In this document: positions 32,439 through 50,996 of the stretch, piece by piece
Layout of the letters: each line of letters opens with the position of its first letter
Position numbering within the stretch: the stretch's first letter is position 1
NCBI GenBank assembly: GCA_963844965.1
Contig: CAWJQC010000007.1
Span: forward strand, 267,719-331,718
Direction of reading: 5' to 3'
Length of the DNA stretch: 64,000 nt
Origin: an uncultured bacterium
GTDB taxonomy: Bacteria; Patescibacteriota; Minisyncoccia; UBA6257; 2-01-FULL-56-20
Notes under the pieces: model-generated
The model's input: only the letters and a program-made list of their open reading frames with translations
Databases searched by the model: none
Told to the model about the DNA's origin: nothing
Program-made: the position numbers and the translations under genes

Positions 32439-32510
32439 GGCGCATTCGTCTAGTGGCCAGGACAGGTGGTTCTCATCCACCAAACAGGGGTTCGATTCCC
32501 CTATGCGCTA
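32439..32510 (+). tRNA. tRNA-Glu (anticodon CUC)
   Basis: Acceptor GGCGCAT/ATGCGCT, D arm TTCGTCTAGTGGCCAGGACA nearly identical to E. coli tRNA-Glu, anticodon stem GGTGG/CCACC with loop TTCTCAT, T arm AGGGG-TTCGATT-CCCCT. An AT-rich palindrome sits upstream (32337-32438). Confidence 0.8.
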
Positions 32511-32641
32511 CATTCAGCTTTCGTTATCGAGGAGACGCGGTTGCGTCCATTTGTGCTACATTTTCCAAAGATGTTGGCAAGTAAATTAGAAGAGAGTAGG
32601 CTATATTGCGGATAGTAAAATAGCTGTTTCGATACAAAAGC

Positions 32642-34782
32642 ATGCTAGAAAAGATAACCTCAATCAAAAATGTGGGTCGGTTCCGCAACAGTCCTGCTAC
32701 TGGTGACGTGACTTTCCGTCGCCACACAATGATATTCGCCGAGAACGGGAGGGGTAAAACAACTCTTTGTGCCATCCTACGCTCGCTGTCCACCAACACA
32801 CCCGCCTTCATCATCGGGCGCAAGACGTATCGGCGGCAACGGTCAGCCGGAAGTCCAACTACTTCTCAACGGCGACTCCGTAACATTTCATGATGGAGTT
32901 GGAGTGCTCCGTTCCCGAACGTGGCGATCTTTGATGGGACCTACGTCAGCGAAAATGTGTTTGCGGGTGACGTGGTTGATACCGAAAACCGACGTAACCT
33001 TTACCGCGTTATTATTGGTGCTCAAGGCGTGGCTCATGCTGGCCGACTCAATGATCTCGATAACCAGATCAGGACTAAAAATAATGAAATCAGGGATGTC
33101 AGAGCGCGGATGCAACCTCATATGCCGCCAGGTACAACAGTTGAAGATTTCATCGCCTTACCCGAAGATGCGACAATCAGTGAGAAGATTTTGGCGAAAG
33201 AACAGGAACTTCAAGCGGTACAACGTGCTGCTCAGTTACAGCAAAAACAGGGTCTAACAGCAGCTGCGGTACCGACCTTTCCCGCATCATTTGCTGAGAC
33301 TCTTGGCAAAACTCTTGAGAATCTTGGGGCAGGCGCCGAGAAGCTTGTCGCCGATCACATTTCACAGCATCAAATGCGAACGCATGGGGAGACTTGGCTG
33401 AGGGATGGCCTCCCTTTTGTGGTCGATGAGTCATGTCCATTCTGCGGGCAATCGCTTGTAGGCGTCGATTTGATTCAGGTATACAAAACTTTTTTCAGCA
33501 ATGAGTACCACGCGCTGCGTAGTGAAGTGATGAAACTAAGTGCGCAGGTTGAGGGTGTGCTCGCGGAGCGTGTATCTGCGGCAATTGAACAAACGCTTTT
33601 ACAGAACAGCAACAACGCCGAGTTCTGGCAACAATATTGTGATTTCGTGCCGCCCGTTCTGCCGGGAGCGGAAAGGCTTGGAGAAATTATCACCGCGCTC
33701 CGGCAATCCGCTCAGTCTCTTTTACAAATAAAGTCGGGGGCACCGCTTGACGCAGTGCCACCGGACGAGGGATTCACTAAATCACTTGTCGCATTCGAGG
33801 CCTTACGCACCTCCCTAGCCAACTATAATGCCGCAGTCGCCGCAGTAAACGTCACAATTGAAGCCAGAAAGCGTGCTACGCAGGCAACGAATGTGCGCGA
33901 AGTTGAAAATGCGGTCGCCAAACTGAAGGGGCAAAAGAATCGCTATACAGTGGGCGTGCAGGAACTTTGCGCGACCGAGACGCGTCTACAGGGTGAAAAG
34001 AAAATTCTCGAAAACGAAAAAGCGCTGGTGCGAGGTCAACTGGACACTCATACGGGACAGGTAATCACCCAATATGGCCAAATCATCAACCGTTTTCTGG
34101 AGCGGATAAATGCGGGATTCAGAATCACTGTGCCATCACACAACTACCGTGGAGGAACGCCGAGTACGAGCTACCAGATTCTTATCAATCAAAATGCGAT
34201 TGATTCTTGGAGACGCAGCGACGCCGACAGACAGACCGAGCTTCAAGAACACTTTGAGTGCTGGCGACAAAAGCACATTGGCTCTCGCATTTTTTCTGGC
34301 ACAACTTGAGCAGGATTCGGATCGTGCTCAAAAAATAGTCGTTTTCGACGATCCTTTCAGCAGTATGGATAGTTTTCGAAGAAATCATACGATCCATCAG
34401 ATATCCAAATGCGGGGAAACATGCGTTCAAGTAGTCCTTCTTTCGCACGAACCATCATTTCTAAAATTGCTGTGGATCGTGGGCACCGGCAGACCGGAAA
34501 ACGCTCCAGCTGGCACGTGTAGGAGAAGAGAACACCGTCATCATTGAATGGGATATCGAGAAAGCGGTCCAGGCACGTTATCGGGCCGATATAGAAGCGT
34601 TGCAAGGATTTTTTTCATTGGGCAAAGGCGATCAGCGGGAGGTGATTCAGAAGCTACGACTGGTGCTTGAGGCGTATTGCCGAACACTCTATCCAACGCT
34701 CATCGGTGAGGATACATTAGGTGTCATTGTAGAAAATCGGCCACGGCAGCTACACAATTCCCCTCCATCTATCGCGGGATGA
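32642..34782 (+). pseudogene. AAA_13-family (ABC/SMC-like, PrrC/RloC-type) ATPase, ~710 aa reading broken by at least 4 frameshifts
   Basis: Walker A FAENGRGKTTLCAILRSL, then (other frames) GGNGQPEVQLLLNGDSVTFHDGVGVL and VAIFDGTYVSENV. Long coiled-coil middle; ABC signature LSAGDKSTLALAFFLAQL; Walker B KIVVFDDPFSSMD; C-terminal ~150 aa continues through ORF 34600..34782. Pseudogene versus indel errors is unresolved. Confidence 0.55.
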
Positions 34783-34789
34783 TCCTCCA

Positions 34790-36239
34790 ATCAATATATT
34801 TATTGCCGTCGCTGTATCATGGTGAAAGCCCCGCTGCTGCGACCGATATATCGACGATGCAGAGCTCCAAGGATATGTCGCACGCACTCTGAAACTCGTT
34901 GGATGTCTTTAGCGCAAACTCCTATTGATAGCATCATACAAAAACTTGCCGGATTATCCGTTCCGAAGCTAGTGAACTTTTATTCGGCCTTCAAGCTTAT
35001 GACCTTATCTCTCACCACAAACTTGCTCTTGATGAGCGAGAGTAATTCTCGTTTCTCGGTGGGATTACCGTCATTTAGTACATATGCTGCGTATCATCTC
35101 GCGTCGAATTCGGCATCATCCTGCTTTATCGCTCTCACACCTAGGAATGATTTCTGGAATTTGGCGACGCGTTTTGTTTCCTCGATAAAACGCTGTTTGA
35201 TATCGGACTCGTTAATATCCAATTTGCCAATTAATCGATAAGCTGTTTAGTGAGCTCATCTTCGCGCATATATTTGTTCTAACAGAACGTATCTCGCGAC
35301 CGACAGCAACCGTAGTAGACGTACTTGGTCGTCGTACCGTCTTTAAGCTTCTTGAATTTCTCCTGTGCGCTAATGGTCGACCCGCAGAGGCCGCAGGTGA
35401 ATAGTTTCGTAAAGGCGAATTCCTTGACCTCAGCATTTCTGAAAAGACTATCTTGCTTTAGTTGTTCCTGGGTTGCTTCGAATATTTCTCTTGTGATGAG
35501 TGCCTGATGTTTCCCGGTGTACCAGTTACCGCTCCCTACGGGGTATTCGAATACACCGTAATAAAAGGTGTTTTGGAGCAGCCGATAAAGATTGCCCAGT
35601 GCCAGATGTTTGTTGCCTGAATTTGTTCGGAAATTAACTTCAAATTTGAGCCAATGAAATAGCTTCCTGCCGCTCCAGCCATTGGCCACCTTCTCAAACA
35701 TCTGTTTAACGACCGGGGCGCGTGCGGGGTCGATTATGACGCTACCTTTACGATCGACACGTTTCTCGGTCAGATATCCAGTAGGAGCCTGCGCGGGCCA
35801 CAGCCCCATTTCGCAGCGCATCCGCAGTCCTCGCTTCACGTTTACACTCTTATTGTCGTTTTCAAGCTTCGCCTGAGAGCATAGGATCATTAGCAAGAAC
35901 TTTTCGTTCGGTGAGTTGGCAAATCTTTGTCCGTAAGTTCGGATCTCATGAGTAACTTCTGATCCATGAGATCCACGAGGATCTGAGGTCGCCCGCGTTC
36001 CTACTTAACCGATCCGGTGCCCATGTGAGAATTCCTGTATATCGGCCGCTTCTAATATCCTTCAAAATTTCCAGAAACACCGACCGCTCGCCTGAGCTTT
36101 TTGCCGAGTGGGATTCCCGCCGGATGTCGACAATTTCCAATGCTTCGCGTTCGGCGATAAGAAGCATCTCCTTAATTTGCGAATCAATGGAGAGAATCTG
36201 TTTTTCTTCCGACTCAGTGCTCTTTCTCGCATAAAGCAC
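34790..36239 (-). pseudogene. decayed large serine recombinase (homolog of the intact copy at 45417..47345)
   Basis: ORF 35946..36239 is the resolvase catalytic N-terminus (MLYARKSTESEEKQILSIDSQ…ILTWAPDRLSRNAGDL). ORF 35279..35896 is the middle (…MILCSQAKLENDNKSVNVKRGLR…KYVYYGC). The C-terminus is recognisable only in shifted frames at 34790-35278. It is divergent from the intact copy and out of frame. Confidence 0.6.
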
Positions 36240-36433
36240 GTATTTGACCTTTACCTCGGGCGGGATTGTTGTAGGGTCCCGCTCCCTGCGCCCCCGTGGT
36301 TTGGGTGGTCATACCACAATGGATGACGCAACCTCGCCAGAGAGTCCAGACCCCCTGAAAGACCCCAAAAGCCCTACCTAAGGCGAGCGCTAAATCGCTA
36401 TAAAAATCGTCTAAATTAAGCTAAAATGGTGCT

Positions 36434-39225
36434 ATGGCACTGAGCTGGAACGAATTCGATCACGAGCTACTGGCTTCGCAAAAGAGTATGAATCGGCGAA
36501 ACGCCGAGATACAAGATTACGCCGATTTTTCGACAGATTTTTTTAATATCTTTGGCGTCCGGCGTCGTTCGGTTTCTATCTATCAAAAAGCGGTCCAAAA
36601 GATAAATGGCAACACGGGATTTATTAATCTTTTTTGGCCGAGTGTATTGCTCGTTGAACATAAGTCGAAAGGAGAAAACCTCGACAGCGCCTTTCTCCAG
36701 GCAAGCGATTACATCTTAGGACTCCCCGAGGAGGAAAGGCCCCGCTACGTAATTGTCTCTGATTTTGAGCAATTCGTTTATATGATCTCGAAACGGAAAG
36801 TGAAAAAACTGAAATTCACGATATCGCGTTATCAAAACTCGCGTCGCATATACGCCTCTTTGGATTTATAGCTGGCTATAAAGTACGTAAATATAAAGAG
36901 GAAGACCCCGTCAATAAAAAGGCGGTGCGTTTGGTCGTGCAGCTATATCAGGCGCTGTCCGATGGAAATTACCCGAAGGAATATCTCGCGCGTCTTATGG
37001 TCCGTTTCGTGTTTCTCTTTCTTCGCAGACGATGCGGGTATTTTCCCAAAACGTGATATTTTCCGTGATTATATGCTTTATCTCACCAAGGAAAATGGTG
37101 AGGATCTCGGTGGGCACTACATCAAATTTTCGAGATTTTGAATACCCGGAGGATAAGCGCCAGCAGGCCCTTTCTGACGATCTAAAAGACTTTCCCGTAT
37201 GTGAATGGGACTCTTTTTAAGGATCCCTTACCGCTGCCGTTTTTCAATAAGGAAATGCGGAGCGAAATTATCCGCGCAGCGCAATTCGATTGGGGCGCTG
37301 TGTCGCCTGCGATCTTCGGTTCGATGTTCCAATTCGTGATGGATGTTGAGGACAACGATATACGGCACGACTTTGGGGCGCATTATACTTCAGAAAAAAA
37401 TATCTTGAAGGTTGTGGACGGCCTCTTTTTGGACGATATAAAAAATGATCTTGAGGCCGCGGGTCAGAATCGGGCAAAACTGAATGCTCTGTGGGAAAAG
37501 ATCGCCGAGATGCGGCTTCTCGACCCCGCCTGTGGTTGTGGGAACTTCCTTGTCGTTGCCTATCGAGAACTCAGGGTTGTCGAGCTTGAAATCATCACAC
37601 GCCTGTTTCGAGATGAGTTAAAGCGGCTAGAGCAACCAACGCTTGGTATCAAAACCGATGTCTCAAAAATCTCTAAGCTTACTCTCGAGCACATGTTTGG
37701 CATAGAGATTCTTTCGTTCCCGGCGGAGATCGCCCGTCTATCGTTGTGGCTCATTGATCATCAGATGAACGTTATGCTTGGAAGTCTATTCGGGGAATAT
37801 TTCGCGAAGCTTCCTCTTAAAGAGCAACCCCATATTTTTCACGGAGATGCGCTTGCTGTTGATTGGGCGCGACTTGCGCCACAAGGAGATAATTTTTCTT
37901 ATATCCTTGGCAATCCACCCTTCATCGCGAAGCAAGATAAAGTCCTGATCAAAAAGCTGATATGCATAGAATATTTGGCGACTTGAAAGGCGCGGGCGAA
38001 TTAGATTATGTAACGGCATGGTATGCAAAGGCGGCCGATTTCATTCAAGGGACCGGAATCCATTGCGCCTTTGTTTCAACCAACTCGATTACCCAGGGAG
38101 AACAAGCTGGAATTTTATGGCCACTATTGCTCCAGAAAGGAGTCCATATCAATTTCGCGCACAGAAACATTTCGTTGGACAAATGAAGCCCCTGGGCGAG
38201 CTGGTGTGCATTGTGTCATCGTCGGTTTCTCGCTTGAAAAATCGGCTAAGCCGCTTTTATGGGACTACGACGATCCAGCCGGAAATCCCCATCTTGTAAA
38301 AGCAAAAAACATTAATCCATATCTTGTCGATGCTGATGATATTGTCGTTTTACCCCGACGGAAGCCGCTCGCCGATGTCCCGGAAGCGCAATTCGGGAGC
38401 ATGCCGAACGACAGCGGATTTTTACTCTTTGATGACGGGGCCAAAAAGGAAGAGTTTTTACTTCAGGAGCCGGGAGCTGAAAAGTTTATCCGCCCGCTCC
38501 TTTCCGCAAAGGAATATCTAAATGGATCTCTGCGATATTGTTTGTGGCTTAAAGAGGCAACACCTCAAGAATTGCGTTCAATGCCGTACCTCATGCGTCG
38601 CGTTGAAGCCGTACGAACGTATCGCGATCTTTCTTCCCGAGCGGCAACTCGCAAACTTGCCCGAACACCCTACCTTTTTGGAGAAGATCGACAACCAGAA
38701 GGTAATTACGTTCTGATCCCTCGGGTGAGTTCTGAAAGGAGGAGATACATTCCATTTTCGTTTTTTGGGCCGGAGTATATCGCTGGTGATACCTGTATCA
38801 TAGTTCCAAATGCCGCTCCTTATCATTTTGGCGTCCTCCAATCCGTAATGCATATGACATGGATGCGTGCAGTGTGTGGACGCCTCGAATCTCGATATCG
38901 CTATTCAAACGAATTAGTTTATAACAATTTTCCGTGGCCGAAGGATGTTTCTAATGAACAACGGGCGTCGATAGAAAAAGCGGTGCAAAATTTATTGGAC
39001 GTTCGCAAGGGATGTCGCGGAACACTTGCGGATCTGTACGATCCAAACGTGATGCCGCGAGAGCTTCTCGAAGCCCATTCGGCACTCGATAAAGCAGTCG
39101 ATAACGCCTATGGCATGTTCCGTGGCTTCCCCTCGGAAGCTGAGCGATTGAAATTTCTGTTTAAATTGTATGAAGACTACCTCCGTGCGGAGCCTACCCA
39201 ATTCGAGCGTAAGGTTAAGAAATGA
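36434..39225 (+). pseudogene. MmeI-family Type IIL restriction-modification enzyme (N-terminal PD-ExK nuclease + gamma-class N6A MTase + TRD), reading broken across at least 5 frames
   Basis: ORF 36434..36871 MALSWNEF…LFWPSVLLVEHKSKGENLD…QASDY is the conserved MmeI N-terminal endonuclease motif. ORF 37201..37986 has AHYTSE, LDPACGCGNFLVVAYRELR, FGIEILSFPAEIARLSLWLIDHQMN, ILGNPPF. ORF 37962..38186 has CAFVSTNSITQGEQ. ORF 38023..39225 has GRLESRYRYSNELVYNNFPWP and the C-terminal LYDPN…LDKAVDNAYG. Error versus decay is unresolved. Confidence 0.75.
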
Positions 39226-39246
39226 CGGCACCAAATTCAAAAAATA

Positions 39247-42112
39247 ATGGAGTACGTCATCCTCGATATCGAAACTACTGGCCTAGATAAGGAACATTCT
39301 TCTATTATCGAGATAGCTGCTATCCTCGTAGAAAAAGGAGGTGTCAAAAATAGTTATAGCTCTTTTGTTCATTATGATGGCGTTCTCTCGGAAACCGTAA
39401 AGCGGCTAACTGGCATCCAAGAAGAAGATACTCAAAAAAGCTCCACTAATAGCTGCTGTCATTTCTGAGTTGAAAAATTTTATTCAGAAGCGACCCGTTG
39501 TTGCTCATAATGGATATTCCTTCGATTTCTTTTTTCTTGAACGGGAGGGGCTGAAACTGGAAGAAAAATATGACTCTATGGAATTTGCCTTTTTTGTCAT
39601 GCCCACGAACGCTCCTGGCCATTCGATCCCTGCGCTCGCGGAACAATTTAAGTTAGGCGAAGCTCCGCATCGGGCGCTCGGGGATTGCAAGCTCGAACTC
39701 ACAATAATCAATCGTCTTCAAAAGGAATATGGAAAGAGAAAGAAATCAAAACGAGAAGTTCTTGCTCATGCCGCAGGAACGACAGGATGGTGGTGGTCCA
39801 ATTTCCTCTCGGGAGAGAAAGCTCCTACTGATCGAATTTCAAGCCTCATTGAGGCTTATGAGCCATACCGCAAAGAATATCGCGGGGCAGAAATGCTGGG
39901 ATTTCAAACAGAAGTGATCGATATTGCAGAGGTTGAAAAATATTTTCAACCAGCGGTAAAAGCGGGCGAGAAAAACGGAGAGGATGATTACTCGGAAGAT
40001 CGACCCGAACAACGAGAGATGGCGAAAATGGTAGCCACGGCGTTTAACAAGCATAAGCATGCGGTCATAGAAGCCGGTACAGGCACCGGAAAATCAAAAG
40101 CATATCTCGTGCCGTCGCTCCTTTTTGGACTCAAGAACCGCATACCGATGATCATATCGACCCATACCAAAGCACTCCAAGATCAGTTATCCCTCAAAGA
40201 AATACCGCACATAAAGAATCTCATTCGGCCCGATCTGCGCGTTGCTGTTCTCAAGGGAAAACAAAATTACGTCTGCTTGGCAAAATTCGAGATTTTTGCC
40301 GAAGAAACTGTGAAGGAGCTTTCGCAACGATCCTTGTATGAGTTTGGTGAATCGGAAACTCGGTATTCAACACGCCTCGCTTATTTATTGCTCTTCTCGT
40401 GGATTCTTGAAGCTGAGTATGGCGATTGGGACGAGCTGCCATACTGGATCAAAGAGCGGATTCCCAAATATATACAAGCCGAAATCTGCAATATCGATGA
40501 GCTTTGCGGCAATGGGACTTGCGACATCTATGACGCAGAAAAATGTTTCCTTGCTAAGGCCAGGCTTCGCGCACGTGATGCCGATCTTGTGATTGTAAAT
40601 CACGCGCTTGCTCTTATGGGCATCATTATTGAGGATAAGACTCCCGAAATACCCAGTGAGCCAGGCGTCGATGTGCCTCCGAGTAAAATGTATAGTCATA
40701 CGGTCTTTCCTAACGAGTCGAAATTCATCGTATTCGACGAGGCCCAACATCTTGAGGACGACGCAACTTCGGCATGGGAGCATGTGCTCTCCCAGAGTTT
40801 CCTACAACTAATTCTCCAGCAACTTTATGGTAAGCGAGGCGTCCAGCAGCTTGTAAAATCTATCGCCAGCAAAAAAACTGATGAACGACTCACGCGGCTT
40901 GCAGCAAATTTTGAGAGTGGCGAAGGCAACATAAAAATCGGCGTCGAGGCGCTTTTTAAAAATATCTTACCGCACCTCGTTTCCGAAAGTGATACACGGG
41001 AAACTTATACTATGCTCGATGAAATTCCCGATACCTCTCCGGAGCGGAAAGCGCTATTCTCTGAGCTACGGAGCTTGCGGCAACGATTTCTTGATATTGC
41101 AAGAATATTAAGTGAATTTTCGGAAGAAACCGAAGTTCCAAGGATGCGCAAAACCCTTTCCGTCCGCTACAACACTCTTCAACGGATCGTGCGCTCATTC
41201 GATGCCATTCTAGAAAACGATAACGTATATGTGAGATACCTCCAGCGATTCGGTTCAAGCGTTGAAATTAAAGCTGCTCCACTCTCGGTCGGTCCATACC
41301 TGAAAGATTATGTCTACGATAATTTTGCTTCGGTAGTTATGACCTCGGCGACACTCACTGTCGGCAAACGGTTCAATTTCTTCGCGAGCCGCTGTGGGAC
41401 ATTATTAGTCGACAAAGAAAAGATTGGGTACAGACTTTTCCATTCCTCCTTCAACTACGAGAAGCAAGTTAAATTTTTTGTTCCGAAAGGAATTAACTAT
41501 AAAGAAGATCGCGAAACCCATCTTGCGAAAAGCACTGAGTTTCTTAAAAAAGCGATTGTCGCCTCCGGCGGAGGCGCGCTCGTGCTTTGCTCAAGCCACG
41601 ATCAGGTCGGAGAACTTTACCAAGGGCTCTCAAAGACACTTTCTGAAAACAATATTTGGCTTCTCCGGCAGCAGAAAGGCATATCAGTAAGCTCCGTCAT
41701 CAGAGATTTTAGAAGGGACGTCGATTCGGTGCTTATTGGCACCGAGACCCTCTGGCAGGGCATCGATGTTCCCGGGGAATCGCTCCGCAGCCTTTTTATT
41801 TATAAGATTCCATATCGAATGCCTGGCCTTCCTCTCATCAAAGCCCGCCGGAAAGAGATTGAAGATAACGAGCGGGATAGCTTTGCCGAATATTATGAAC
41901 CGCTTGCCGCTCTAATTCTCAAGCAGGGATTCGGGCGGTTGATCCGCAAATCCACTGACATCGGTATCGCCGTACTTCTCGATGAAAACTTTCTTAAAAA
42001 GCCGAGCCTTATGAACTCCCTTCCGGAAGGCGTCCACCCTCAAGCTGCCGAGCCGGAAGCTATTTGCGAAGAACTTCATAAATTACACTTGTTGCGACTG
42101 AAGGAGAGTTAG
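39247..42112 (+). CDS. dinG: bifunctional DnaQ-like 3'-5' exonuclease / DinG-family (Rad3-like) ATP-dependent helicase (frameshift in an A6 run at ~39448)
   Basis: ORF 39247..39468 YVILDIETTGL (Exo I). After an A-run the alternative frame gives …VVAHNGYSFDFFFL (Exo II) and HRALGDCK (Exo III) in ORF 39470..42112. Helicase motifs VIEAGTGTGKSKAYLVPSL, VFDEAQHL (DEAH-like), and C-terminal QGFGRLIR. Confidence 0.8.
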
Positions 42113-42144
42113 CCACAAGCCAGAAAATCAGCTATGCTTTTTCA

Positions 42145-42615
42145 ATGGACGCAACATTCGTAAAAGACCTCATCAAGGGGAAGATTGCCGAAATTATATT
42201 CGAGCAGATGTTTCGTGAGTCCGGCGAGTATACAATTCTCCATTCTGGCTATGAATATACCCTGCCCGAACTCGCGCAGTATCAACATCTCACCGAGATA
42301 AAAGCAGTGATTGAGAACATAAGGAATGCGCCAGATTTCGTTTTAATTTCGCAAGATAAAAAACGGGTTTATCTCGTGGAGGTGAAATATCGGCGCAACC
42401 GCAATCCGCGCGAGCTAAAAAAAATTTGTGAAAATACCCTTCAGATCTGGAATCCTTCGTGGCTTTTTGTAGCATCTCCTGATGGATTTTTCTTTGAGCC
42501 CTGCAACGATGTGGTCAACAAAAATGATGGGCAGATTGGACCCCTCTACGATAAGTGGGTAAAAAACGATGTTCAATCGGAATATCTGAAACTCCTGAAT
42601 CAGTTTGAGCTTTAA
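42145..42615 (+). CDS. small PD-(D/E)xK nuclease-fold protein (Hjc/restriction-endonuclease-like)
   Basis: 156 aa: …APDFVLISQDKKRVYLVEVKYR… gives a D…E-V-K arrangement with flanking strands consistent with a PD-(D/E)xK core. Confidence 0.4.
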   Translation: MDATFVKDLIKGKIAEIIFEQMFRESGEYTILHSGYEYTLPELAQYQHLTEIKAVIENIRNAPDFVLISQDKKRVYLVEVKYRRNRNPRELKKICENTLQIWNPSWLFVASPDGFFFEPCNDVVNKNDGQIGPLYDKWVKNDVQSEYLKLLNQFEL

Positions 42616-42622
42616 ATTGAGA

Positions 42623-44081
42623 TTAACCAATCTCTTTTTCCAAGTTCTCCAATATGCGTACCATCGCCATCGTGTCGAGGCCACAATAGAGCAGCATGTC
42701 CCGCTTGAGTTTTTCCTTTTCAGCTAGTGGCGTCTTGGAATCCGTAAGCCGCGGCCAGCTGACAGACGCCGTGCTCCCTTCCTGAATGGCGAGATTCTGA
42801 TACGAAAGTTCGGGCACGAGGACCGGGAGAATCGCCTTGATGGACGCGCTCCCATGGAAACCTTGCATCCACGAACATCTTTTTCTTAAATATAAGCATC
42901 AGGTCGTAGACGCGGTTGTTCACCGCCTCCATGAAATCGGCATATTCTGGATATTGCTCTCCGATCTCCTTATTCCTTGGCACTTCGAATGGAGCGAACC
43001 ATACGATGACAGTTCCTTTCGTGCCGATATCCGTTTTGAGTTGCGCCACCATCTCCGGAATGGGATTTGCGTCCTTCACCGCCAAAAACTCCTTTTGCTC
43101 CGCCTCGGCCTTGGGCGTTTTCTTAATGTGAAGTGAGTATTGAAAAACTATCTTCTGCCACGGACGCGTGCCGTCATAGGGTGGTATGGGTGAGGCAAAC
43201 GTTTCATAATCCAAAAAGTAGATTGGGTAAACGAGCGCCGCGAGTTCCTTTTTTATCATCGCGGCATCCATCGTTTTTTCCACTGGCGTATACCCAAGGC
43301 CACGCAGAAATACCGCAGAGAGCGAATTCGCGTCAAGAGTTCCTTTTTTCAACAAGCTGAGGGTGAAGGCTGGTGGCCAGTTCTTGACATCCAATTTTTT
43401 TGCCGGGGCCTTGGAGAGGTAAAATTCCAAGTGGTCGCACGAACCAGTCTTCGACTTGCACGAAAGGATAACGCGATTGTCCGGGAAGTCCTCGATGGCG
43501 AGGAGGGCGAGGGAATCTGCTATGCTTGTTTTAATCTCAGGCACAAGATCACGCGCCTCATCAGTCACATCCTCAGTTATAAAAAACTTCTTGGGCTCTA
43601 CGTTCCCTTTCCGTACATATTCATTGTTTACATGAATAATGAAAGTTTTCCCCACTTTGATGCCAGCTTCTTCAAAACAAATGAGCTGGAACGCAACATC
43701 GCGTAAGTCCTCCGGCCGAACCTTTGTTGCACTCTTCACCTCGCGGATATCGTAAGCATCCGCCGTTTGATCATAGGTCACAATATCTGCGCGGCAGGTC
43801 AATCCGGTCTTTGTGACGACGGTCGGCTGGAAAATAACTTTTTGTTTTTCGTCAAAGAGTGTTTTGCTTTTGCGCCAACCTTCCTCGTTAAAATCAAAAA
43901 GTTCTATGCCATCCTTATAGAGCTGCTTTGCGAGTATATCCACCTTTTCACCTTCCTGTTGATGGAAGATCTCTGATGCCGAGGGAAGCGGCATAAGATG
44001 TTTGCCTTTTCTCGCCATCCAAAGGTAACAACCGCATTCGAGAAAGTTCTTGTAGTCGGTCTTCGTGAACAGTTTAGCCAT
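42623..44081 (-). CDS. DUF2779 family protein (PD-(D/E)xK/Cas4-related nuclease superfamily), frameshift near 42870
   Basis: MAKLFTKTDYKNFLECGCYLWMA…, YFLDYETF, and a C-terminal block in ORF 42623..42868 (…GSASIKAILPVLVPELSYQNLAIQEGSTAS…YCGLDTMAMVRI) matching DUF2779 termini. Two ORFs overlap in different frames. Confidence 0.55.
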
Positions 44082-44377
44082 AGTTAGTTCTTCATTTCTA
44101 TCACGTTGAGCAGCTTTTCGCAAAAGATGAAGGGACGTCAGGAACCCTCAAAAAATATTGTCAAACTGGCTCCAAACGTGATACCTTTTAGGTAATTGAA
44201 TATCAGATAGATCGCCTAAACCACGCATTTTGCATGGCATGGCATTACGCAGAATCTCCCTTCCAGATACCAAACGCCACGTTTGGCGACTTCTGGAAGG
44301 GAGTCACTCCGAAAGGGGTGGGGCCGCAAGGCCCAAGCCAGCGTGGCGTTTTGTGTTCTCTATTTTAAAACAAACCC

Positions 44378-45289
44378 ATGGCCTTATTCTCCATCTCAAA
44401 CGGCAGCACGAAGAAAATATCATCCGTGAAAATCGGGCTTGAAAAAGACGTCCAAAAACTCTTCGAGAAAAACCTTGAGGAGATTTTGAATATCACATTC
44501 CTAGCATCAGAGTATTCAACGAGCTTCGGCGGACGAATCGATACGCTGGGTATGGATCATAACGGAGCGCCAGTGATCATTGAATATAAGCGGTCGCAAA
44601 ATGATAGCGTCATCAACCAAGGCCTGTCATACCTCCGATGGCTTCTTGATCACAAAGCGGATTTTGAAGCGCTGGCGCACCGATTAAAAATTGAGATTGA
44701 AATTGATTGGGCTTCTCCGCGCGTTATCTGCGTGGCCGAGAGTTACAATAAATTTGACCTCGATACCGCCGATCTTCTGCCGATGAACATAGAACTGTTA
44801 CGCTACAAGATTTATGAACAAAACATTCTTCTCGTTGAACCAGAAGTGCAACGCAAAATAAAAATATCCACGTCGGAAGTATTCGAGAAAACAACGCGGG
44901 AGAGGCACGAGTTTAAAGAACAGATCAAACACACCATCGAAGATCATTTGAAATCAGCAAATCCCGCCATCCGCGATCTTTTTGCCGCCATGAAAGAGAA
45001 AGTTCTTGCGCTTGACGAATCAATCAGCGAGGAGCCGAAAGCGCATTACATTGCCTACAAACTGGTGAATAATTTTGTGGATGTTGCGGTGCAAAAGGAC
45101 GCCTTAAAAATTTTCCTCAACATCACGAGCGGCGCGTTAAATGATCCGACATCTCTGGCCCGCGACCTTACTAAGCCGAAACCCGTTGGCCACTGGGGTA
45201 ACGGCGACTACGAACTCAAGCTTGATCAACGGGAAAATCTCAATGCTGTGATGGCGCTCATCAAGCAAAGTTACGAATACAACAAGTAA
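44378..45289 (+). CDS. NucS/DUF91-like PD-(D/E)xK nuclease-domain protein with uncharacterised C-terminal domain
   Basis: 303 aa: …GGRIDTLGMDHNGAPVIIEYKRSQND… resembles the NucS/EndoMS-type nuclease motif. It is preceded by a long perfect hairpin at ~44262-44330. Confidence 0.4.
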   Translation: MALFSISNGSTKKISSVKIGLEKDVQKLFEKNLEEILNITFLASEYSTSFGGRIDTLGMDHNGAPVIIEYKRSQNDSVINQGLSYLRWLLDHKADFEALAHRLKIEIEIDWASPRVICVAESYNKFDLDTADLLPMNIELLRYKIYEQNILLVEPEVQRKIKISTSEVFEKTTRERHEFKEQIKHTIEDHLKSANPAIRDLFAAMKEKVLALDESISEEPKAHYIAYKLVNNFVDVAVQKDALKIFLNITSGALNDPTSLARDLTKPKPVGHWGNGDYELKLDQRENLNAVMALIKQSYEYNK

Positions 45290-45416
45290 AGCCCTTGTTC
45301 AGAAATACTGAAAATCCCCGCTGTAAACCAGAGGAGGTTTTCGGTTTCTTTTTCCATCCGCCCTAAAATAGCGCGGCGATTTTTCGTGTTCAAAAATAAA
45401 CTAATTTATCATCACT

Positions 45417-47345
45417 ATGGCAAAACGAGGAAGACCGCCGAAAAATCAATTGACGGTCGCGCAACCAAAAACCGAATGTGCTCCGGACATGAGTAGTCTC
45501 AATAAGATGCCGAAGTATTGTTTGTACGCGAGGAAGTCATCGGAGAGCGAAGAACGGCAGGCACTCTCCATCGACTCACAGGTCAAGGAGATGTATAAGA
45601 TCGCGGAGCGCGATCATCTCTCGGTCGTTGAAGTACTGACCGAATCACACTCTGCAAAAAGCACCGGATGCCGACCGATCTTTAACCAGATGGTTATAGG
45701 TGTTAAGGATGGCCGCTTTGAGGGCATTCTTACCTGGGCACCGGATCGTCTGAGTCGCAACGCAGGCGACTTGGGCCAGCTGGTCGATCTTATGGACAAC
45801 GGCCATCTTGCGGAAATCCGCACGTTCGGGCAGATATTCAAAAATTCGCCCAACGAAAAATTCTTGCTTATGATTCTCTGCTCACAGGCGAAACTCGAAA
45901 ATGATAACAAGAGCGAGAACGTGAAGCGAGGTCTCCGTGCTGCCGCCGAGCGAGGATATCGCCCAGGCGTCGCACTTGTGGGATACACGAACAGTTATCG
46001 CAGGGATCATCCCGGCGAAGTGGTAATTGATAAACTGCGAGCCCCAATCATAAAGCTTATGTTTGAGAAAGCCGCAAATGGATGGTCAGCGCGGAAGTTG
46101 GTGGTCTGGCTTCGCGGTATCAACTTTACGACGCGCAACGGAACATATCTCTATCTAAGCAGTGTTCATACGCTGTTGCAGAACCACTTTTACTACGGCA
46201 CGTTCGAATACCCTCGGGGCAGCGGCGCATGGCACAAAGGAAATCATAAACCGCTCATTACCAAGGATATGTTCGACCGTGTTCAAGCGCAGATTGAACG
46301 ACGGCGCACCTCGCGCCGCTCGGAGCGGAAATCTTTTGGATTCACCCAGCTCATGCATTGCGGCATCTGTGGCTCCGGCGTTTCCGCCGAAGAAAAATTT
46401 AAGAAACTGGTAGACGGTTCACAGGCCCGCTATGTCTACTACGGATGCAATCGTTCCAAGGGGGTGAAGTGTACCAATACTTACATCCGTGAGGATTTTC
46501 TGGTCCGGCAGTTTGTGAACATCATCGACGAGATATCGCTCGACGAGCTTGGCATACGAAAACTTCTCGGCGAGGAAACTGAGCGTGTCTTTCGGTTTCA
46601 CAATGATGTCATGGGCGATCCTAACGCTTCGGAAACTCAAGAGAAAAAAGATATCGACATTAAAACCTACGCTAAATATCTACTCGCAAGAGGCAACGCC
46701 GAAGAAAAAAGATTACTACTATGCAACATTCAGAACCGACTGATCCTTCGGGATAAAGCCGTATATCTGGAAGAAGTAGGCGGTCTTACCTGGAAGGACT
46801 ATATTGGCCATATGAGAAAGTGCGCGAACTGCGGATCAAAAAACGTGAACGAGAGCGGACCGTATGCGAACTGGAAATTCGGCGATACGCCAATCGACGA
46901 CACGCCGCGGATCGTGTATTTCGCTTGTCTCGACTGTGAGCAATCGTGGAAGCAGGTCAACGAGAATATCTTGCGATTAATGCGCGAGTATGTGGTGGTG
47001 CCAGAGGGAAACGGGGCGTGGATTAAAACACCTGGCGGCTCGGAGTTTTTCGCGACGCCGTCTTTCGCCGCGCGGTTCAGAGACACGGTGGAGATAGACG
47101 GCAAAAAAGTGCCACCGAAAAAAATTCTCGGGGAAATGCTGTACTGGCCAGACAGGAACGCTTACGAGACGACGATCGAATATGACGACGGAAGCGAACG
47201 GACATTTGATATCCCAAGTCTTCGTGGCAGGAACAATACAGAAGAAGGCATGAAGCCGATCAGCAATAAGGATGGTCTTATGGAGTACAAAGAAGGTAAG
47301 ATGCAAACTTATTTCGGTCGCGGTCTCCAATATGACGGCCGATAA
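45417..47345 (+). CDS. large serine recombinase (phage-type serine integrase), intact
   Basis: 642 aa: resolvase domain (LYARKSSESEERQALSIDSQ…ILTWAPDRLSRNAGDL), recombinase domain, zinc ribbon (CGICGS…YYGCNRSKGVKC), coiled coil and a second C4 motif. Confidence 0.85.
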   Translation: MAKRGRPPKNQLTVAQPKTECAPDMSSLNKMPKYCLYARKSSESEERQALSIDSQVKEMYKIAERDHLSVVEVLTESHSAKSTGCRPIFNQMVIGVKDGRFEGILTWAPDRLSRNAGDLGQLVDLMDNGHLAEIRTFGQIFKNSPNEKFLLMILCSQAKLENDNKSENVKRGLRAAAERGYRPGVALVGYTNSYRRDHPGEVVIDKLRAPIIKLMFEKAANGWSARKLVVWLRGINFTTRNGTYLYLSSVHTLLQNHFYYGTFEYPRGSGAWHKGNHKPLITKDMFDRVQAQIERRRTSRRSERKSFGFTQLMHCGICGSGVSAEEKFKKLVDGSQARYVYYGCNRSKGVKCTNTYIREDFLVRQFVNIIDEISLDELGIRKLLGEETERVFRFHNDVMGDPNASETQEKKDIDIKTYAKYLLARGNAEEKRLLLCNIQNRLILRDKAVYLEEVGGLTWKDYIGHMRKCANCGSKNVNESGPYANWKFGDTPIDDTPRIVYFACLDCEQSWKQVNENILRLMREYVVVPEGNGAWIKTPGGSEFFATPSFAARFRDTVEIDGKKVPPKKILGEMLYWPDRNAYETTIEYDDGSERTFDIPSLRGRNNTEEGMKPISNKDGLMEYKEGKMQTYFGRGLQYDGR

Positions 47346-49127
47346 GCGTTGCCAGATGGCAAAATAACATCGCCGCTTCCGGAGGAATTGCTTGGAGTAG
47401 GGCTTGGCGGTGCACTTGCCGATGGAGATCCGTCGCTGGTCTCGGATGGTCCATTTCGCGGAGATGGTCCCAACGCCGCAGGCCGATGAGTACTGTCTGC
47501 GGAATTGTCGCCAGTGTTCGGCGGCGGTGGCGTAGAACGCGGAGCAAGACCCCATACTTGTAAATTGCCGAGGAGATCGGGGAGATTAACGCTGTAGCTG
47601 TCCGTGGGCAATGGCTCGGTATTTCTGCTGCGGCCCATGATCTCCACCTTGCCCGTATCCAGGTTAAGCCGCCCAATCACTGGCAACTGGCCATTCTCTC
47701 CAATCACGCTGTTCGCCATGAGGGTAAATGCGTCACAGAGGTCATCGAACCGCTCTATGCCAAATCCAATGAGCTGTTGCTTCAGGTGTGAATTCTCCGG
47801 GTCCGGCGCGAAGAGTATTGTGCCATTCTGAATAAGAGCGCTTGCGGTCATAAGCCGGGCGTGTTTGTCGGTGGCGATCTTTACGCCGATCACCCTGCAA
47901 TGTTTGGATTTTTCGAGGTACTCGATGGCCGACCGTTGATAGGCCACATCCTCGATCCGTATCTCGACCGCGCCGCAAAGCTTCGTGTACATATCATGGA
48001 GTTCCTTGAGGAGCTCCATCGTTTCAAGGAACGCCATCCTGCGGTTAATCGTCTTGATGACATACCCGTGGAAGTCCTTGCCGAATCCGGCGAAGAGGCC
48101 TACGACGATGCCCGTGTAATCAGCGGTTTCTTTTTCCGAGATCGCGAGGTCGACCCCGATGACCACCTTTTTGATTTTCTCTTTCGGCAATACTACCCAG
48201 TGCTTGATCCATTCCGCTTGGATCACGCGCTCGTCGCTCGTGACCGTTTGGAGTAAAAATTCCCTGCGCCACGTAGTGTCGTCACCGATCTTCCGTTTGA
48301 ACGCCTCAAGTGCCTCGGGCGTCTTGAACTTCTCTGGCCACTGGCATACGCCTTCATCGTCAACGAGCGGATACCGCCGAAAGACACCACCACGCTCGCC
48401 TTTTTTGATTTGCTCGATAACGCGGCCGAGCAGGGAAAATTCGTGCAAGAAATTCCCGATGAGAAAGATCTTTGTCTTTGTCGTGCCCAACGGAATTATT
48501 TCCGATACGAACCAGCTATAGATGCGATCGCGGTTTTCTTTTGTCCGCGTCCCTTGCAGATCTTGCGGATCGTCTACGATCACATAGTCCGGGCGGTATT
48601 GCTTGTAGCGCAGACCGCGCACTGCCTGTTGGGACGAGATCGCAATTATTTTTGCATCGAATTTCCTGAGGGTCATGCCGAACGCGCCGCTCTCGTCGCC
48701 CTCCATATCGATCGGTCCGAAATCATTTCTGAGGAGGGGCGATTCAAGCGCCTTGCGGATGTTGGAGAAATGCGTCCGCACCTGATGGAGCGTATCGGAC
48801 GCGATCACGATAAAGTGGGCGCGACCGCTGAGGATCAGACCACAGAGAGAATGACGTATTGAGAATCGCGCTCTTCCCGGAATTTCTGAATCCGGCGATC
48901 ACATAGAGATCATTGTCGTTCGACTCGGTAAGGCGAAACATATCTCGGTGAAAGTCCGCCATCGGGTCTTGGAGGTAGTCCGCAAGATAGATGTTAAAAA
49001 ACATCGCGTGCGACCACTGGCCAAGCTTGCGCCGCAGGAGGCGGCTCTTGCGGATGATGTCGATGAAGAAATTGAACTTATCGGCATTGTTACTGTTGTC
49101 ACTACTAGGAATTGGTAGGTTGTCCAT
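47309..49127 (-). CDS. phage terminase large subunit (frameshift near 48810-48850)
   Basis: ORF 48744..49127 has the ATPase Walker A GFRNSGKSAILNT. ORF 47309..48808 has VIVDDPQD (Walker B-like) and the RNaseH-like nuclease domain VIGVDLAISEKETADYTGIVV. The C-terminal ~90 aa is Pro/Ser-rich. Confidence 0.7.
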
Positions 49128-49503
49128 TTTTGTTTTGATTAAAGAGGTTTATATAATCTGCGGGGAACCCTGCGAGGCGGAGGGCTTCGCGGAGGAGTTC
49201 GACCTCCTCATCGGTCAGCTCTTCGCGCAGATTGACGGTTCCCGAAAGCTCAAGCCTGCTGCGATACTCATCCTTGTTATTCTTGAGCCAGAAGATCGCC
49301 GCTTGCAGCTTGCCTTGCTTGATCGCCGTAATGACCTGACTTTCCGCAACATCCGAAATGAGGCCTTTGCCGTCGATCATCGCTTGGTCCACCGCTTTTG
49401 CGAAGGCAGGGTCGTCCTGTTTGTATCGGTAGAACGTTGTCCTGCCAACGCCCGCCTTCGCTGCGGCTACTTCCACGAATCGGCGTTTTCTTGAGCGACT
49501 CAA
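49105..49503 (-). CDS. phage terminase small subunit (HTH)
   Basis: 132 aa, N-terminal HTH (AAAKAGVGRTTFYRYKQ), overlapping the terminase large-subunit start. Confidence 0.5.
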   Translation of the reverse strand: MSRSRKRRFVEVAAAKAGVGRTTFYRYKQDDPAFAKAVDQAMIDGKGLISDVAESQVITAIKQGKLQAAIFWLKNNKDEYRSRLELSGTVNLREELTDEEVELLREALRLAGFPADYINLFNQNKNGQPTNS

Positions 49504-49533: not shown

Positions 49534-50861
49534 TTAGATCTTTTGAGGCTTGATGCCTGTTATGCGCTCGACTCTTTTTAGGATCACGGTGAGGTACACC
49601 GGAGATTTCTCCATCAGATAACAGCGGCGTTGCATTTTTAATGCAGCAGCCCATGTGGATCCGCTGCCCCCGAATGGCTCAAGGACGAGGTCGTTGCGCC
49701 TCGTAAGCACCTTGATATAGGGAACCAGGATCTCCACGGGCTTCGTGCCGAAAATGACGCCCTGCCCGGAATTCTTTTCGTCCGAGGCGACATGCTCGAT
49801 GAAGTCCGTAGGGCAAAACTTTTTTCCTTTTTCGTAGGACTCCCATTGCGGTTTCCCCGAGGTGGCAAACAACGCGTTTTCGTACTCGTTCTGGAGCAGC
49901 TCATCGCCCTCGTCGTCAAGGTTCAGCACCACTTCACCGCCGGTTCCCACAAGCGCGATGTCGTGCTTGTTGAAGAATTTGTATTTCGCTGCAAAACCGG
50001 AGACACGATTCGGAAGATGCCACGTGATCGTGTTCCGATATTTCCAATGTTGTTCTAGGGCGTTCCATATAGTCCGTAGATTCTTCGGATTTTCGAACAC
50101 AATGATGGAGAAGTCTGGCTTTTGCACCTTGGCTACATTCGCCATCCAGAGATCCGTAAAATTCTCCGGCAGTGATTCCGTCTCGAGATACCTGCGATCG
50201 CGCTTCAAACCGAACCCCTCCGTCGCTTTGCCGTTGCGCTTCTTGCCGTGGAGGTAATCCAAAAGGTAAGGGGGGTCGGTGAAACAGAGATTCGCCCGCT
50301 CGCCGTTCATGAGTTTCATGATGTCGGCCTCTACTGTGCTGTCCCCACACATCGCCCGGCTGCCGTTCAGCTCGAACACGTCGCCCTTTTGAATCTCTAT
50401 CTTGTCGATCTGGAGCTTCTGCAACTCCTTCGCGAGGTCAAATTCTTCTGGCGTTTCATCGAGCGCGAAGATTTTATCCAACTCTTCGCTTGAGAACCCA
50501 ATATCTTTCAAGATGGATTCATCGAACTCTGCGAGGGCCGCGATATCAAATTCGCCCGTGTTTTTGTTCAGCCGAATTATGATCTCGGCCTCCTTCTCTG
50601 GATCAGGAACGTTGATACGAACGACAGGCACCGTCTCTACACCCATCTCGATCAGTACCTTTGCGCGGAAGTTACCGCCGAGGATCACGCCTTCGCGGCC
50701 CGGCGCACTGTTAATGACTAATGGATCGATTATGCCGTGGCGCTCGAGACTCGCGCAGTTGAGTGTTTGCCTCCTTGGTCCATAGGCGAGGGTTCCTTTC
50801 GGGATGGCGTAGCGAAGCGAGAGGAACGTAATCGATCTTCAACTTTTCTTGTATGTCTTGG
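49534..50861 (-). CDS. ParB-like nuclease domain / DNA methyltransferase fusion (phage-type), frameshift near 50760
   Basis: In a shifted frame upstream of ORF 49534..50688: MDQDIQEKLKIDYVPLASLRHPERNPR (ParB N-terminal motif). Then …LERHGIIDPLVINSAPGREGVILGGNFRAKVLIEMGVETVPV. MTase motifs CFTDPPY (IV) and LVLEPFGGSGSTWAAA (I). Confidence 0.7.
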
Positions 50862-50996
50862 TCCATGTTTTTATTAATTTATTTGTACGACTATATAAGT
50901 ATTGTTTCACTGAACTTCAGTGCTTTTAACTGCTTTTAGTTGCTTCCCTAGTCAAAAAGAATAGAAAAAATGAGCCGCGCAGAGCGGCCCAATCAG

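What the first reader, a model, noticed from the sequence alone, without database searches (positions are those of the whole stretch)
34790..47345. Two related large serine recombinases, one decayed and one intact, bracket the defense-gene block
The minus-strand copy (34.8-36.2 kb) retains the resolvase N-terminus and recombinase middle but is divergent and out of frame at the C-terminus. The plus-strand copy (45.4-47.3 kb) is intact, with both zinc-ribbon motifs, and sits at the left edge of the terminase-containing prophage-like segment. This suggests successive serine-integrase-mediated insertions into the same tRNA-Glu-proximal hotspot, with the older element losing its integrase.
Basis: partly seen in the sequence, partly recalled or inferred. 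Interest (0 to 1): 0.5.

Follow-up and report, generated by a model that had tools for sequence, protein, structure and literature searches.

The report
Two-recombinase defence island in a Patescibacterium
A 22-kb block inserted next to a tRNA-Glu gene of a candidate-phyla-radiation bacterium carries two different large serine recombinases, one broken and one intact, around anti-phage genes; comparison with other genomes suggests they belong to one recurring kind of mobile island rather than to two independent prophages.

Summary
An intact 642-aa large serine recombinase (LSR) lies at 45417-47345(+). A disrupted LSR lies at 34980-36312(-), with four frame breaks and two nonsense codons. They are 55-57% identical in protein and belong to different clades, so they are not recent duplicates.

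Two related Patescibacteria have mur ligase, tRNA-Glu and tpiA contiguous. The whole 32.5-54.7 kb interval is therefore an insertion.

- In 13 other loci a ParB-methylase, TerS, TerL and a short LSR lie in that order on one strand, with a variable gap of 0.1-8 kb before the LSR.
- The window shows the same order on its minus strand. An 11.4-kb gap there holds the defence genes and the long LSR.
- An unrelated metagenome contig repeats this bracket next to tRNA-Val.

The terminase module therefore most likely pairs with the decayed short LSR. No virion genes were found, so this is not a prophage.

Caveat: essential genes in this assembly (secA, ftsI, mur ligase) and purD are also frameshifted. 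Only the two nonsense codons argue for real decay.

No att repeats were found, and none are expected for LSRs.

The parts
32439..32511 (+). tRNA-Glu(CTC). It marks the left edge of the inserted island. The same tRNA lies between mur ligase and tpiA in relatives.
32642..34547 (+). AAA_13 / PDC-S06-type candidate defence ATPase, split into three ORFs (32642-32893, 32921-34309, 34110-34547)
34980..36312 (-). Short-clade large serine recombinase pseudogene, with four frame breaks and nonsense codons at 35279-35281 and 35094-35096. The conserved upstream motif TCTGGACT...GTTGCGTCATCC is retained at about 36313-36355.
36434..39225 (+). MmeI-like type IIG restriction-modification gene, split into at least three ORFs (36434-36871, 37201-37986, 38023-39225)
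39470..42112 (+). DinG-type helicase (880 aa, intact ORF)
42720..44123 (-). DUF2779 / Cas4-like nuclease (467 aa, intact). Homologues recur as cargo in L021, L029 and L033.
44213..44334 (+). LOOT RNA motif (RF03000) lying directly 5' of the PDC-S18 gene
44378..45289 (+). DUF5655 / PDC-S18 candidate defence gene (303 aa)
45352..45416 (+). About 65 bp of non-coding sequence conserved upstream of long-LSR genes in the window, L002, L005, L006 and L007. It is a promoter/operator or a recombination site. Similarity between loci ends at its left edge.
45417..47345 (+). Intact long-clade large serine recombinase (642 aa). Residues 1-452 form the LSR core. Residues 453-642 form a clade-specific all-beta C-terminal domain with CxxC...CxxC.
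47690..49127 (-). Large terminase subunit homologue. The N-terminal ~85 aa are in another frame (ORF 48744-49127). Homology ends near 47663-47696, and the ORF tail down to 47309 is unmatched.
49105..49503 (-). Small terminase subunit-like HTH protein (132 aa)
49534..50866 (-). ParB_N-N6/N4 DNA methyltransferase, with one frame break near 50.75-50.82 kb. It is 62-71% identical to the module methylases of other loci.
50997..54608 (.). Right-hand part of the island: a 208-aa ORF(-), RusA(+), a 167-aa zinc-ribbon ORF(-), small ORFs and an M23 peptidase(-). GC is lower (0.42-0.46). There are no homologues in any related locus, so whether it belongs to the element is unknown.

Best explanation
The segment 34.98-50.87 kb is one integrative island of a family widespread in Patescibacteria.

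Architecture. The family core is ParB-methyltransferase, TerS, TerL and a short (~440 aa) large serine recombinase, all on one strand. A variable bay lies between TerL and the recombinase. In the window this core reads on the minus strand. Its bay is 11.4 kb long and holds anti-phage genes (type IIG RM, DinG helicase, DUF2779, PDC-S18) together with a second recombinase of a rare long clade, convergent with TerL.

Inferred mechanism:
- The short LSR is the family's integrase. It placed the island beside the tRNA.
- It has since been inactivated here by two nonsense codons. The long LSR is now the only intact recombinase.
- The long LSR either arrived with the defence cargo as a nested insertion into the bay, or serves as an alternative integrase or cargo-exchange enzyme.
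- The TerS/TerL pair, with no virion genes, suggests packaging into a helper phage's capsids, as in phage satellites.

Shown versus inferred. Shown: the insertion relative to relatives, the gene order, its recurrence, and the clade assignment. Inferred: which recombinase moved what, and the satellite-like transfer.
For: Insertion. L013 and L014 have mraZ-mraW-ftsL-ftsI-mur ligase-tRNA-Glu-tpiA-SIMPL-GtrA contiguous.

Canonical order. MTase, TerS, TerL and short LSR lie on one strand, with a TerL-LSR gap of 0.1-8 kb, in L016, L020-L025, L027, L030, L031, L033, L036 and L038. Their modules are homologous to the window's: MTase 62-66%, TerL 39-47% identity.

Window and L002. Both show the same order and strand, with gaps of 11.4 and 9.5 kb. 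L002's short LSR lies 143 bp from tRNA-Val.

Composition. In L002 the short LSR (0.509), long LSR (0.518), TerL (0.531) and MTase (0.506) share one GC level, while the cargo between them is 0.399.

Cargo. Genes beside the modules are dominated by RM and other defence genes. No virion families appear among the most frequent Pfam and PHROG families, the 25 listed of 68 and of 157 respectively.

Short LSR. It retains the family's conserved upstream motif. It has two nonsense codons, against none in the housekeeping genes.
Against: - L002 and L007 are 83% identical from the long LSR through TerL, TerS, MTase and a 132-aa ORF. Similarity stops abruptly just upstream of the long LSR, and about 65 bp there is conserved across loci. 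That is what an element end at the long LSR would look like.
- L005, L006 and L007 show no short LSR within the 8.6-10 kb of upstream sequence that could be fetched.
- In L004 and L008 the long LSR lies on the methylase side of the module. In L010 and L011 no TerL follows it.
- Two modules on one contig do occur: the contig of L027/L032, and L079 with a 93% identical TerS repeat at both ends. Accretion of separate elements is therefore possible.
- No att site was identified for either enzyme.
Confidence: 0.5

Rival explanations
1. One reading: two independent elements inserted one after the other at the tRNA-Glu site. An older one (short LSR plus defence genes, 34.98-45.3 kb) has lost its integrase. 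A younger one starts about 65 bp upstream of the long LSR and carries TerL, TerS and the methylase.
For: - Long LSR, TerL, TerS and MTase are contiguous in five loci. Conservation breaks sharply just upstream of the long LSR, and the upstream genes are unrelated between loci.
- GC rises from 0.45-0.48 to 0.50-0.53 at about 45.4 kb.
- Two modules on one contig exist in this family.
- L013 shows a scar of earlier use of the tRNA-Glu site.
Against: - The module's usual same-strand partner, seen in 13 loci, is a short LSR, and the window's short LSR sits in that place.
- The same bracket recurs in L002, where the short LSR shares the module's GC and the cargo does not.
- Every fetched locus with readable upstream sequence has defence or other cargo genes upstream of the long LSR, never housekeeping genes.
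- In L004 and L008 the variable cargo next to the long LSR lies between conserved parts of the element.
Confidence: 0.3
2. Assembly artefact: the short LSR (and the split MmeI, PDC-S06, TerL and methylase genes) are intact in the organism, and the disruptions are sequencing indel errors.
For: Against intact orthologues in L013 and L014, secA shows five frame breaks, and ftsI, mur ligase and purD show one each. That is 8 breaks in about 11.9 kb of housekeeping genes. Frameshifts are therefore not diagnostic in this window.
Against: - The short LSR also has two substitution-type nonsense codons in well-aligned context. The housekeeping alignments have none.
- Its lesion density (6 in 1.33 kb) is several times the background.
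- The long LSR, helicase, DUF2779 and DUF5655 genes (6.9 kb together) have no lesion.
- For the split cargo and module genes, each with one to three frame breaks, the artefact reading remains plausible.
Confidence: 0.12
3. The two oppositely oriented recombinases act together on the segment between them, inverting or exchanging the defence block as a switch. On this view they are not integrases.
For: - The opposite orientation flanking the cargo recurs in two loci.
- Serine recombinases in defence islands are known to invert DNA: PinR (bioRxiv 10.1101/2025.03.28.646004) and PinQ (PMC12529663), seen only as titles and abstracts in the listing.
Against: - Both are large serine recombinases with recombinase and zinc-ribbon domains. 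The closest solved relatives are the integrases SPbeta SprA, TP901-1 and A118.
- No inverted repeats flank the block.
- One partner is a pseudogene here.
Confidence: 0.05

Closest known systems
Large serine integrases of temperate phages (SPbeta SprA/YokA, TP901-1, A118/LI, phiC31, Bxb1)
   Same: Both copies have the resolvase catalytic domain, the recombinase domain and the zinc ribbon. SPbeta SprA/YokA, TP901-1 and A118 are the best solved matches. PHROG 'integrase' scores 3.4e-65. phiC31 and Bxb1 are named from general knowledge only.
   Different: Sequence similarity to the solved enzymes is remote (E about 1e-9). The intact copy adds a ~190-aa all-beta C-terminal domain that has no PDB fold match and is found essentially only in its own clade. 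No att sites or directionality factor were identified, and the surrounding element has no virion genes.
Phage satellites (PICI, cf-PICI, P4-like, PICMI)
   Same: A small integrative island with an integrase and its own packaging gene(s) but no capsid, portal or tail genes. It carries accessory or defence cargo. The size is in the 10-20 kb range.
   Different: - It encodes both TerS and TerL plus a ParB-methyltransferase.
- It uses a serine rather than a tyrosine integrase.
- No replication or primase module, and no helper-interference genes, were recognised.
- The host phylum is Patescibacteria.
- Helper dependence is entirely inferred.
SCCmec-type elements with two serine recombinases (ccrA/ccrB)
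   Same: One island carries two paralogous large serine recombinases and variable cargo, inserted at a fixed chromosomal site.
   Different: ccrA and ccrB are adjacent, co-oriented and both required. Here the two genes are 9-11 kb apart, oppositely oriented and of different clades. Most relatives of the island have only one recombinase.
Defence islands on integrative elements and cargo hotspots (P2/P4 hotspots, pipolins, lateral-transduction platforms)
   Same: Several defence systems sit in a variable slot of a conserved mobile backbone. The cargo differs completely between otherwise 83% identical backbones. Cargo types recur, for example DUF2779 and MmeI-like genes.
   Different: The backbone of ParB-MTase, TerS, TerL and LSR did not turn up in a single four-term full-text search whose listing I read only as titles and abstracts. 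In some members a second recombinase sits inside the slot.

Membership tests
Large serine recombinase / serine integrase | N-terminal resolvase-type catalytic domain | tested here: met
   PF00239 matches the intact copy at 2.7e-20 and the pseudogene N-terminal piece at 1.3e-11. The YARKS(S/T)ES motif is present in both.
Large serine recombinase / serine integrase | Recombinase domain (PF07508) followed by the zinc-ribbon domain (PF13408) | tested here: met
   Intact copy: 3.9e-15 and 1.9e-07. Pseudogene: 1.9e-12, and a sub-threshold 0.0074 because the domain is interrupted by a stop.
Large serine recombinase / serine integrase | Identifiable attL/attR (imperfect inverted half-sites around a ~2-bp crossover) at the element ends | tested here: inconclusive
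   The only hit was a 15-bp inverted match at chance level, 45377-45391 against 52843-52857 (E = 0.42), which does not extend. No tRNA-derived repeats were found. Flanks in relatives are too divergent to place junctions to the base.
Large serine recombinase / serine integrase | Demonstrated integration/excision activity and a recombination directionality factor | not testable with these tools
   This requires an assay or read-level junction data.
Prophage | Virion structural and lysis genes (portal, capsid, tail, holin/endolysin) | tested here: not met
   Pfam and PHROG scans of the ORFs at 47.3-54.6 kb give only TerL, TerS, the methylase, RusA and an M23 peptidase. In 11 related loci (110 proteins) no virion family appears among the most frequent families, the 25 listed of 68 Pfam and 157 PHROG families; rarer single hits were not shown.
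Phage satellite (PICI-like) | Integrase plus packaging-redirection gene(s), without a full virion module | tested here: met
   LSR, TerS and TerL are present and structural genes are absent.
Phage satellite (PICI-like) | Own replication module (primase/replicase, ori) and induction by a helper phage | tested here: inconclusive
   No primase or replicase was recognised. Helicases are present, but in this window they score as defence-type (DinG). Helper dependence cannot be tested here.
tRNA-targeted genomic island (tyrosine-integrase type) | Direct repeat of the tRNA 3' end at the distal island boundary | tested here: not met
   No copy of the tRNA-Glu 3' 24 nt (up to 5 mismatches) or 40 nt (up to 10 mismatches) occurs in 32-56 kb. 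The same holds for tRNA-Val in L002. By contrast, L013 does carry such a partial tRNA-Glu copy.
Defence island | Cluster of several known or candidate anti-phage systems | tested here: met
   PADLOC scores: PDC-S06 1e-30; type IIG RM up to 2.1e-130; DinG 8e-98; Cas4-like 8.7e-05; PDC-S18 3.9e-97.
Patescibacterial ParB-MTase/TerS/TerL/short-LSR island (family defined here) | The four genes in this order on one strand, with a variable gap only between TerL and the LSR | tested here: met
   On the window's minus strand: MTase 50866-49534, TerS 49503-49105, TerL 49127 to about 47690, short LSR 36312-34980. The same order is seen in 13 other loci. The window's gap (11.4 kb) is larger than any other seen (maximum 7.9 kb; 9.5 kb in L002).

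The most novel reading that the evidence does not exclude
Patescibacteria harbour a so far undescribed class of satellite-like defence islands built on a ParB-methylase/TerS/TerL/serine-integrase core.

In a sub-lineage, a second recombinase with a new C-terminal DNA-binding-like domain sits at the edge of the cargo bay. It acts there as a cassette-capture enzyme, analogous to an integron integrase beside attI, and swaps defence genes in and out at the conserved ~65-bp site just upstream of its own gene. The LOOT RNA motif would be a leader of the captured cassettes.
Probability: 0.12. Interest if true: 0.8.

Novelty: new variant of a known kind. Interest (0 to 1): 0.5.

Why it matters
Mobile elements and phage defence in candidate-phyla-radiation bacteria are poorly charted. 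This window, with about 25 related loci, points to a recurrent backbone (ParB-methylase, TerS, TerL, serine integrase) that carries restriction and other defence genes between these tiny-genome organisms. The terminase pair without virion genes suggests transfer in borrowed phage capsids.

If that holds, three things follow:
- It gives a handle for finding new defence systems in these lineages.
- It yields a set of compact serine integrases, including one with an unprecedented extra domain, of possible interest as genome-engineering tools.
- It provides a first genomic context for the orphan LOOT RNA motif.

The window is also a cautionary case. Pseudogene calls here are unreliable, because even secA is frameshifted in the assembly.

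Tried and rejected
- att-like repeats. Self-BLAST of 32-55 kb, k-mer matching of the tRNA flank against the island, and approximate matching of the tRNA 3' end gave only one 15-bp inverted match at chance level.
- Junction comparison. I compared the LSR-TerL intergenic regions of 'type A' loci with the ends of 'type B' loci to find a split attP. L002 and L007 share terminator-like hairpins, and L004 and L008 share another conserved stretch. Nothing links the two types.
- Exact-protein look-ups. The long LSR and the 100%-identical TpiA representative (P0121) are not on record. The only near-identical sequence found (L001, 99.87%) covers 53.2-56.4 kb and cannot test the pseudogene.
- Long-clade C-terminal domain in IMG/VR: no hit. 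In GTDB representative genomes only two loci were found, and in JGI metagenomes only four. Statistics on the long clade are therefore thin.
- A LOOT-like element next to the short pseudogene: none at E up to 1.
- Circularity of the IMG/VR contig L079. The terminal repeat is only 93% identical, so I read it as two modules on one contig, not as a circle.
- Literature on LOOT function. The Weinberg 2017 main text does not discuss it, and no supplements are held.
Full report
1. WHAT IS IN THE SEQUENCE

ORF listing and Pfam scans confirm an intact 642-aa large serine recombinase (LSR) at 45417-47345(+). It has Resolvase, Recombinase and Zn_ribbon_recom domains.

tblastn of this protein against the window finds one other copy, on the minus strand. 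It comes in three frame pieces (36308-35985, 35947-35234, 35234-34989) and is 55-57% identical over residues 7-452.

I read the six frames against closer relatives. This puts the start at the ATG at 36312 and the natural stop at 34980-34982. The lesions are:
- four frame breaks, near 36.27-36.30, 35.98, 35.95 and 35.235 kb;
- two in-frame stops, at 35279-35281 and 35094-35096.

At DNA level the two genes share only patches: 67-73% over 100-220 bp, and one 80-bp stretch at 84%. The damage is spread along the gene, and the two genes are old relatives rather than duplicates.

2. THE TWO ENZYMES BELONG TO DIFFERENT CLADES

A database search with the intact protein returns thousands of ~440-aa LSRs. 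Where named, they are mostly from Patescibacteria, and all are about 55-58% identical to the query. Only about eleven proteins of 560-630 aa are 64-75% identical.

The pseudogene is 70-77% identical to short members such as P0072, P0078 and P0034. It is a short-clade gene.

The long clade carries a conserved C-terminal extension of about 170-190 aa with CxxCGS...CxDC:
- A profile of this extension finds only two strong clusters among 1.84 billion representatives.
- It finds two loci in GTDB species representatives, both Patescibacteria.
- It finds none in IMG/VR.

The closest solved relatives of the core are SPbeta SprA, TP901-1 and A118 integrases.

3. THE ISLAND IS A REAL INSERTION

TpiA relatives identify the host as a Patescibacterium. 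The best named hits are Candidatus Liptonbacteria.

In two relatives (L013 and L014) the genes mraZ-mraW-ftsL-ftsI-mur ligase-tRNA-Glu(CTC)-tpiA-SIMPL-GtrA are contiguous. About 0.5 kb separates mur ligase from tpiA. In the window, 22.2 kb (32512-54707) lies between the tRNA and tpiA.

L013 has a partial second copy of the tRNA-Glu 3' half about 100 bp downstream of the tRNA. This scar suggests the site has been used before.

In the window, no tRNA-derived repeat and no att-like repeat can be found. That is expected for serine recombinases, which exchange strands at a ~2-bp core.

4. ASSEMBLY CAVEAT

Compared with the intact orthologues of L013 and L014, the window's housekeeping genes carry these frame breaks:
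- secA: five;
- ftsI: one;
- mur ligase: one;
- purD: one.

That is 8 breaks in about 11.9 kb of housekeeping genes. secA cannot be a pseudogene in a living bacterium, so indel errors in the assembly are the likely cause. Frameshifts alone therefore do not show decay.

This affects the split PDC-S06, MmeI-like, TerL and methylase genes. All of them may be intact in reality.

The same housekeeping alignments contain no in-frame stop in well-aligned sequence. The short LSR has two. I therefore accept that the short LSR is truly inactivated, with moderate confidence.

5. WHAT SURROUNDS THE RECOMBINASES

PADLOC and Pfam identify the following defence genes:
- PDC-S06, left of the short LSR;
- between the two LSRs: a type IIG restriction-modification enzyme, a DinG-type helicase, a DUF2779/Cas4-like protein and PDC-S18.

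Right of the long LSR, on the minus strand, lie TerL, TerS and a ParB-N6/N4 methyltransferase. Beyond them are a 208-aa ORF, RusA, small ORFs and an M23 peptidase. No portal, capsid or tail genes are present. This is not a prophage in the usual sense.

6. COMPARATIVE LOCI

Loci that encode long-clade LSRs:
- L002/L003/L009, L005, L006 and L007 all show long LSR(+) convergent with TerL, TerS and ParB-MTase(-). The genes upstream of the LSR are unrelated between loci and defence-rich.
- L002 and L007 are 83% identical from the LSR through a 132-aa ORF beyond the methylase, and unrelated outside that span.
- About 65 bp upstream of the LSR start is conserved across these loci.
- In L004 and L008 the long LSR lies on the other side of the module.
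- In L010 and L011 no TerL follows the long LSR within 1-1.4 kb.

L002 repeats the window's bracket. A 446-aa short LSR(-) lies 143 bp from tRNA-Val, followed by 7.4 kb of cargo, the long LSR(+) and then the module.

The short clade is also tied to the same module:
- In L016/L017 the order is ParB-MTase, TerS, TerL and short LSR on one strand, next to a type I restriction system. The proteins are homologous to the window's.
- A scan of IMG/VR with the methylase alignment found 20 close loci.
- Wherever both TerL and an LSR are visible, they follow this same-strand order: L020-L025, L027, L030, L031, L033, L036 and L038. The TerL-LSR gap ranges from 0.13 to 7.9 kb.
- Genes around the modules are mainly restriction-modification, helicase, DUF2779, AAA_15/21 and HTH genes. 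No virion families appear among the most frequent families, the 25 listed of 68 Pfam and 157 PHROG families.

Read on its minus strand, the window has exactly this order. The MTase runs from 50866, followed by TerS, then TerL down to about 47690, then a gap of 11.4 kb, then the short LSR at 36312-34980. The short LSR keeps the family's conserved upstream motif.

In L002 the short LSR, long LSR and module share a GC content of 0.50-0.53. The cargo between them is 0.40.

7. INTERPRETATION

The most economical reading is a single composite island. The terminase module's native partner is the now-dead short LSR. The defence genes and the long LSR occupy the family's variable bay.

I cannot say how the long LSR got there or what it does now. 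It may be a nested cassette, an alternative integrase or a cargo-exchange enzyme.

- the sharp conservation boundary just upstream of the long LSR;
- the absence of a visible short LSR in L005-L007, within the limited flanks I could fetch;
- the existence of two modules on one contig.

I put the composite model at about 0.5, the tandem model at about 0.3, and smaller weights on an assembly artefact and on an inversion switch.

The presence of TerS and TerL without virion genes suggests satellite-like packaging by a helper phage. This is inference only.

8. NOVELTY

LSR-borne islands, defence cargo hotspots and terminase-bearing satellites are all known kinds. What looks new:
- this particular backbone in Patescibacteria;
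- the recurrent second recombinase with an unmatched extra domain;
- the link to LOOT RNA.

One four-term full-text search, whose listing I read only as titles and abstracts, showed no description of such elements in Patescibacteria. That search was neither deep nor exhaustive. I rate the finding as a new variant of a known kind, of moderate interest.

Noticed in passing
window 44213-44334 and 22006-22129; L005 8284-8402; L006 8834-8957; L016 11369-11491: The orphan LOOT RNA motif (RF03000) occurs five times, always 40-60 nt upstream of a variable ORF beside an LSR or a defence-type gene.
- In the window it precedes PDC-S18/DUF5655 (next to the long LSR) and an MTase-Mrr fusion at 22189-23787.
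- In L005 and L006 it precedes one or two ORFs ahead of the long LSR.
- In L016 it follows the short LSR.
It looks like a 5' leader of mobile or defence genes in Patescibacteria.
   Followed up: partly
window 60508-63125, 29369-31004, 31049-32336, 26001-27319: The essential genes secA (five frame breaks), ftsI (one) and mur ligase (one), and also purD (one), are frameshifted relative to intact orthologues in L013 and L014. This points to indel errors in the assembly, so any pseudogene call in this window needs read-level confirmation.
   Followed up: yes
L013 9588-9661 and about 9730-9785: A relative with an empty site carries tRNA-Glu followed by a partial second copy of its 3' half, resembling the tRNA-Glu of L014. 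This looks like a scar of an earlier integration or excision at the same hotspot.
   Followed up: partly
[not shown]
   Followed up: yes
window about 36313-36355; the equivalent position in L002, L016, L021, L022, L025, L027, L031-L033: A conserved motif, TCTGGACT / CTAGACT ... 10-12 nt ... GTTGCG(T/G)CAT(C/T)C or GGTACC, lies about 45 nt upstream of short-LSR start codons, even between proteins only ~47% identical. It is a promoter/operator or a recombinase binding site.
   Followed up: no
L079 (IMGVR_UViG_3300009694_001303) 1-438 vs 11959-12396; L027/L032 (IMGVR_UViG_3300009873_002614): Some viral-database contigs carry two copies of the ParB-MTase/TerS module. In L079 the copies sit at both contig ends and are 93% identical. 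In the L027/L032 contig the two modules are about 25 kb apart, and one of them lacks TerL. This suggests accretion of related islands on one stretch of DNA.
   Followed up: partly
window 47309-47690: The TerL reading frame continues about 120 codons past the point where homology to other TerL proteins ends. This proline/serine-rich tail overlaps the 3' end of the long LSR gene by 37 bp. It may be read-through caused by an assembly indel.
   Followed up: no
window 13444-16295: This stretch of nearly 3 kb has only short ORFs (135-160 aa) and no Rfam hit. It may be another frameshift-riddled gene or non-coding DNA.
   Followed up: no
L013 and L014, between tRNA-Glu and tpiA: Both relatives share short conserved strings (GGGGAATCGAAC ... 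GCGTGAGATTCCCC) upstream of tpiA that are absent from the window. They may belong to a small structured element.
   Followed up: no
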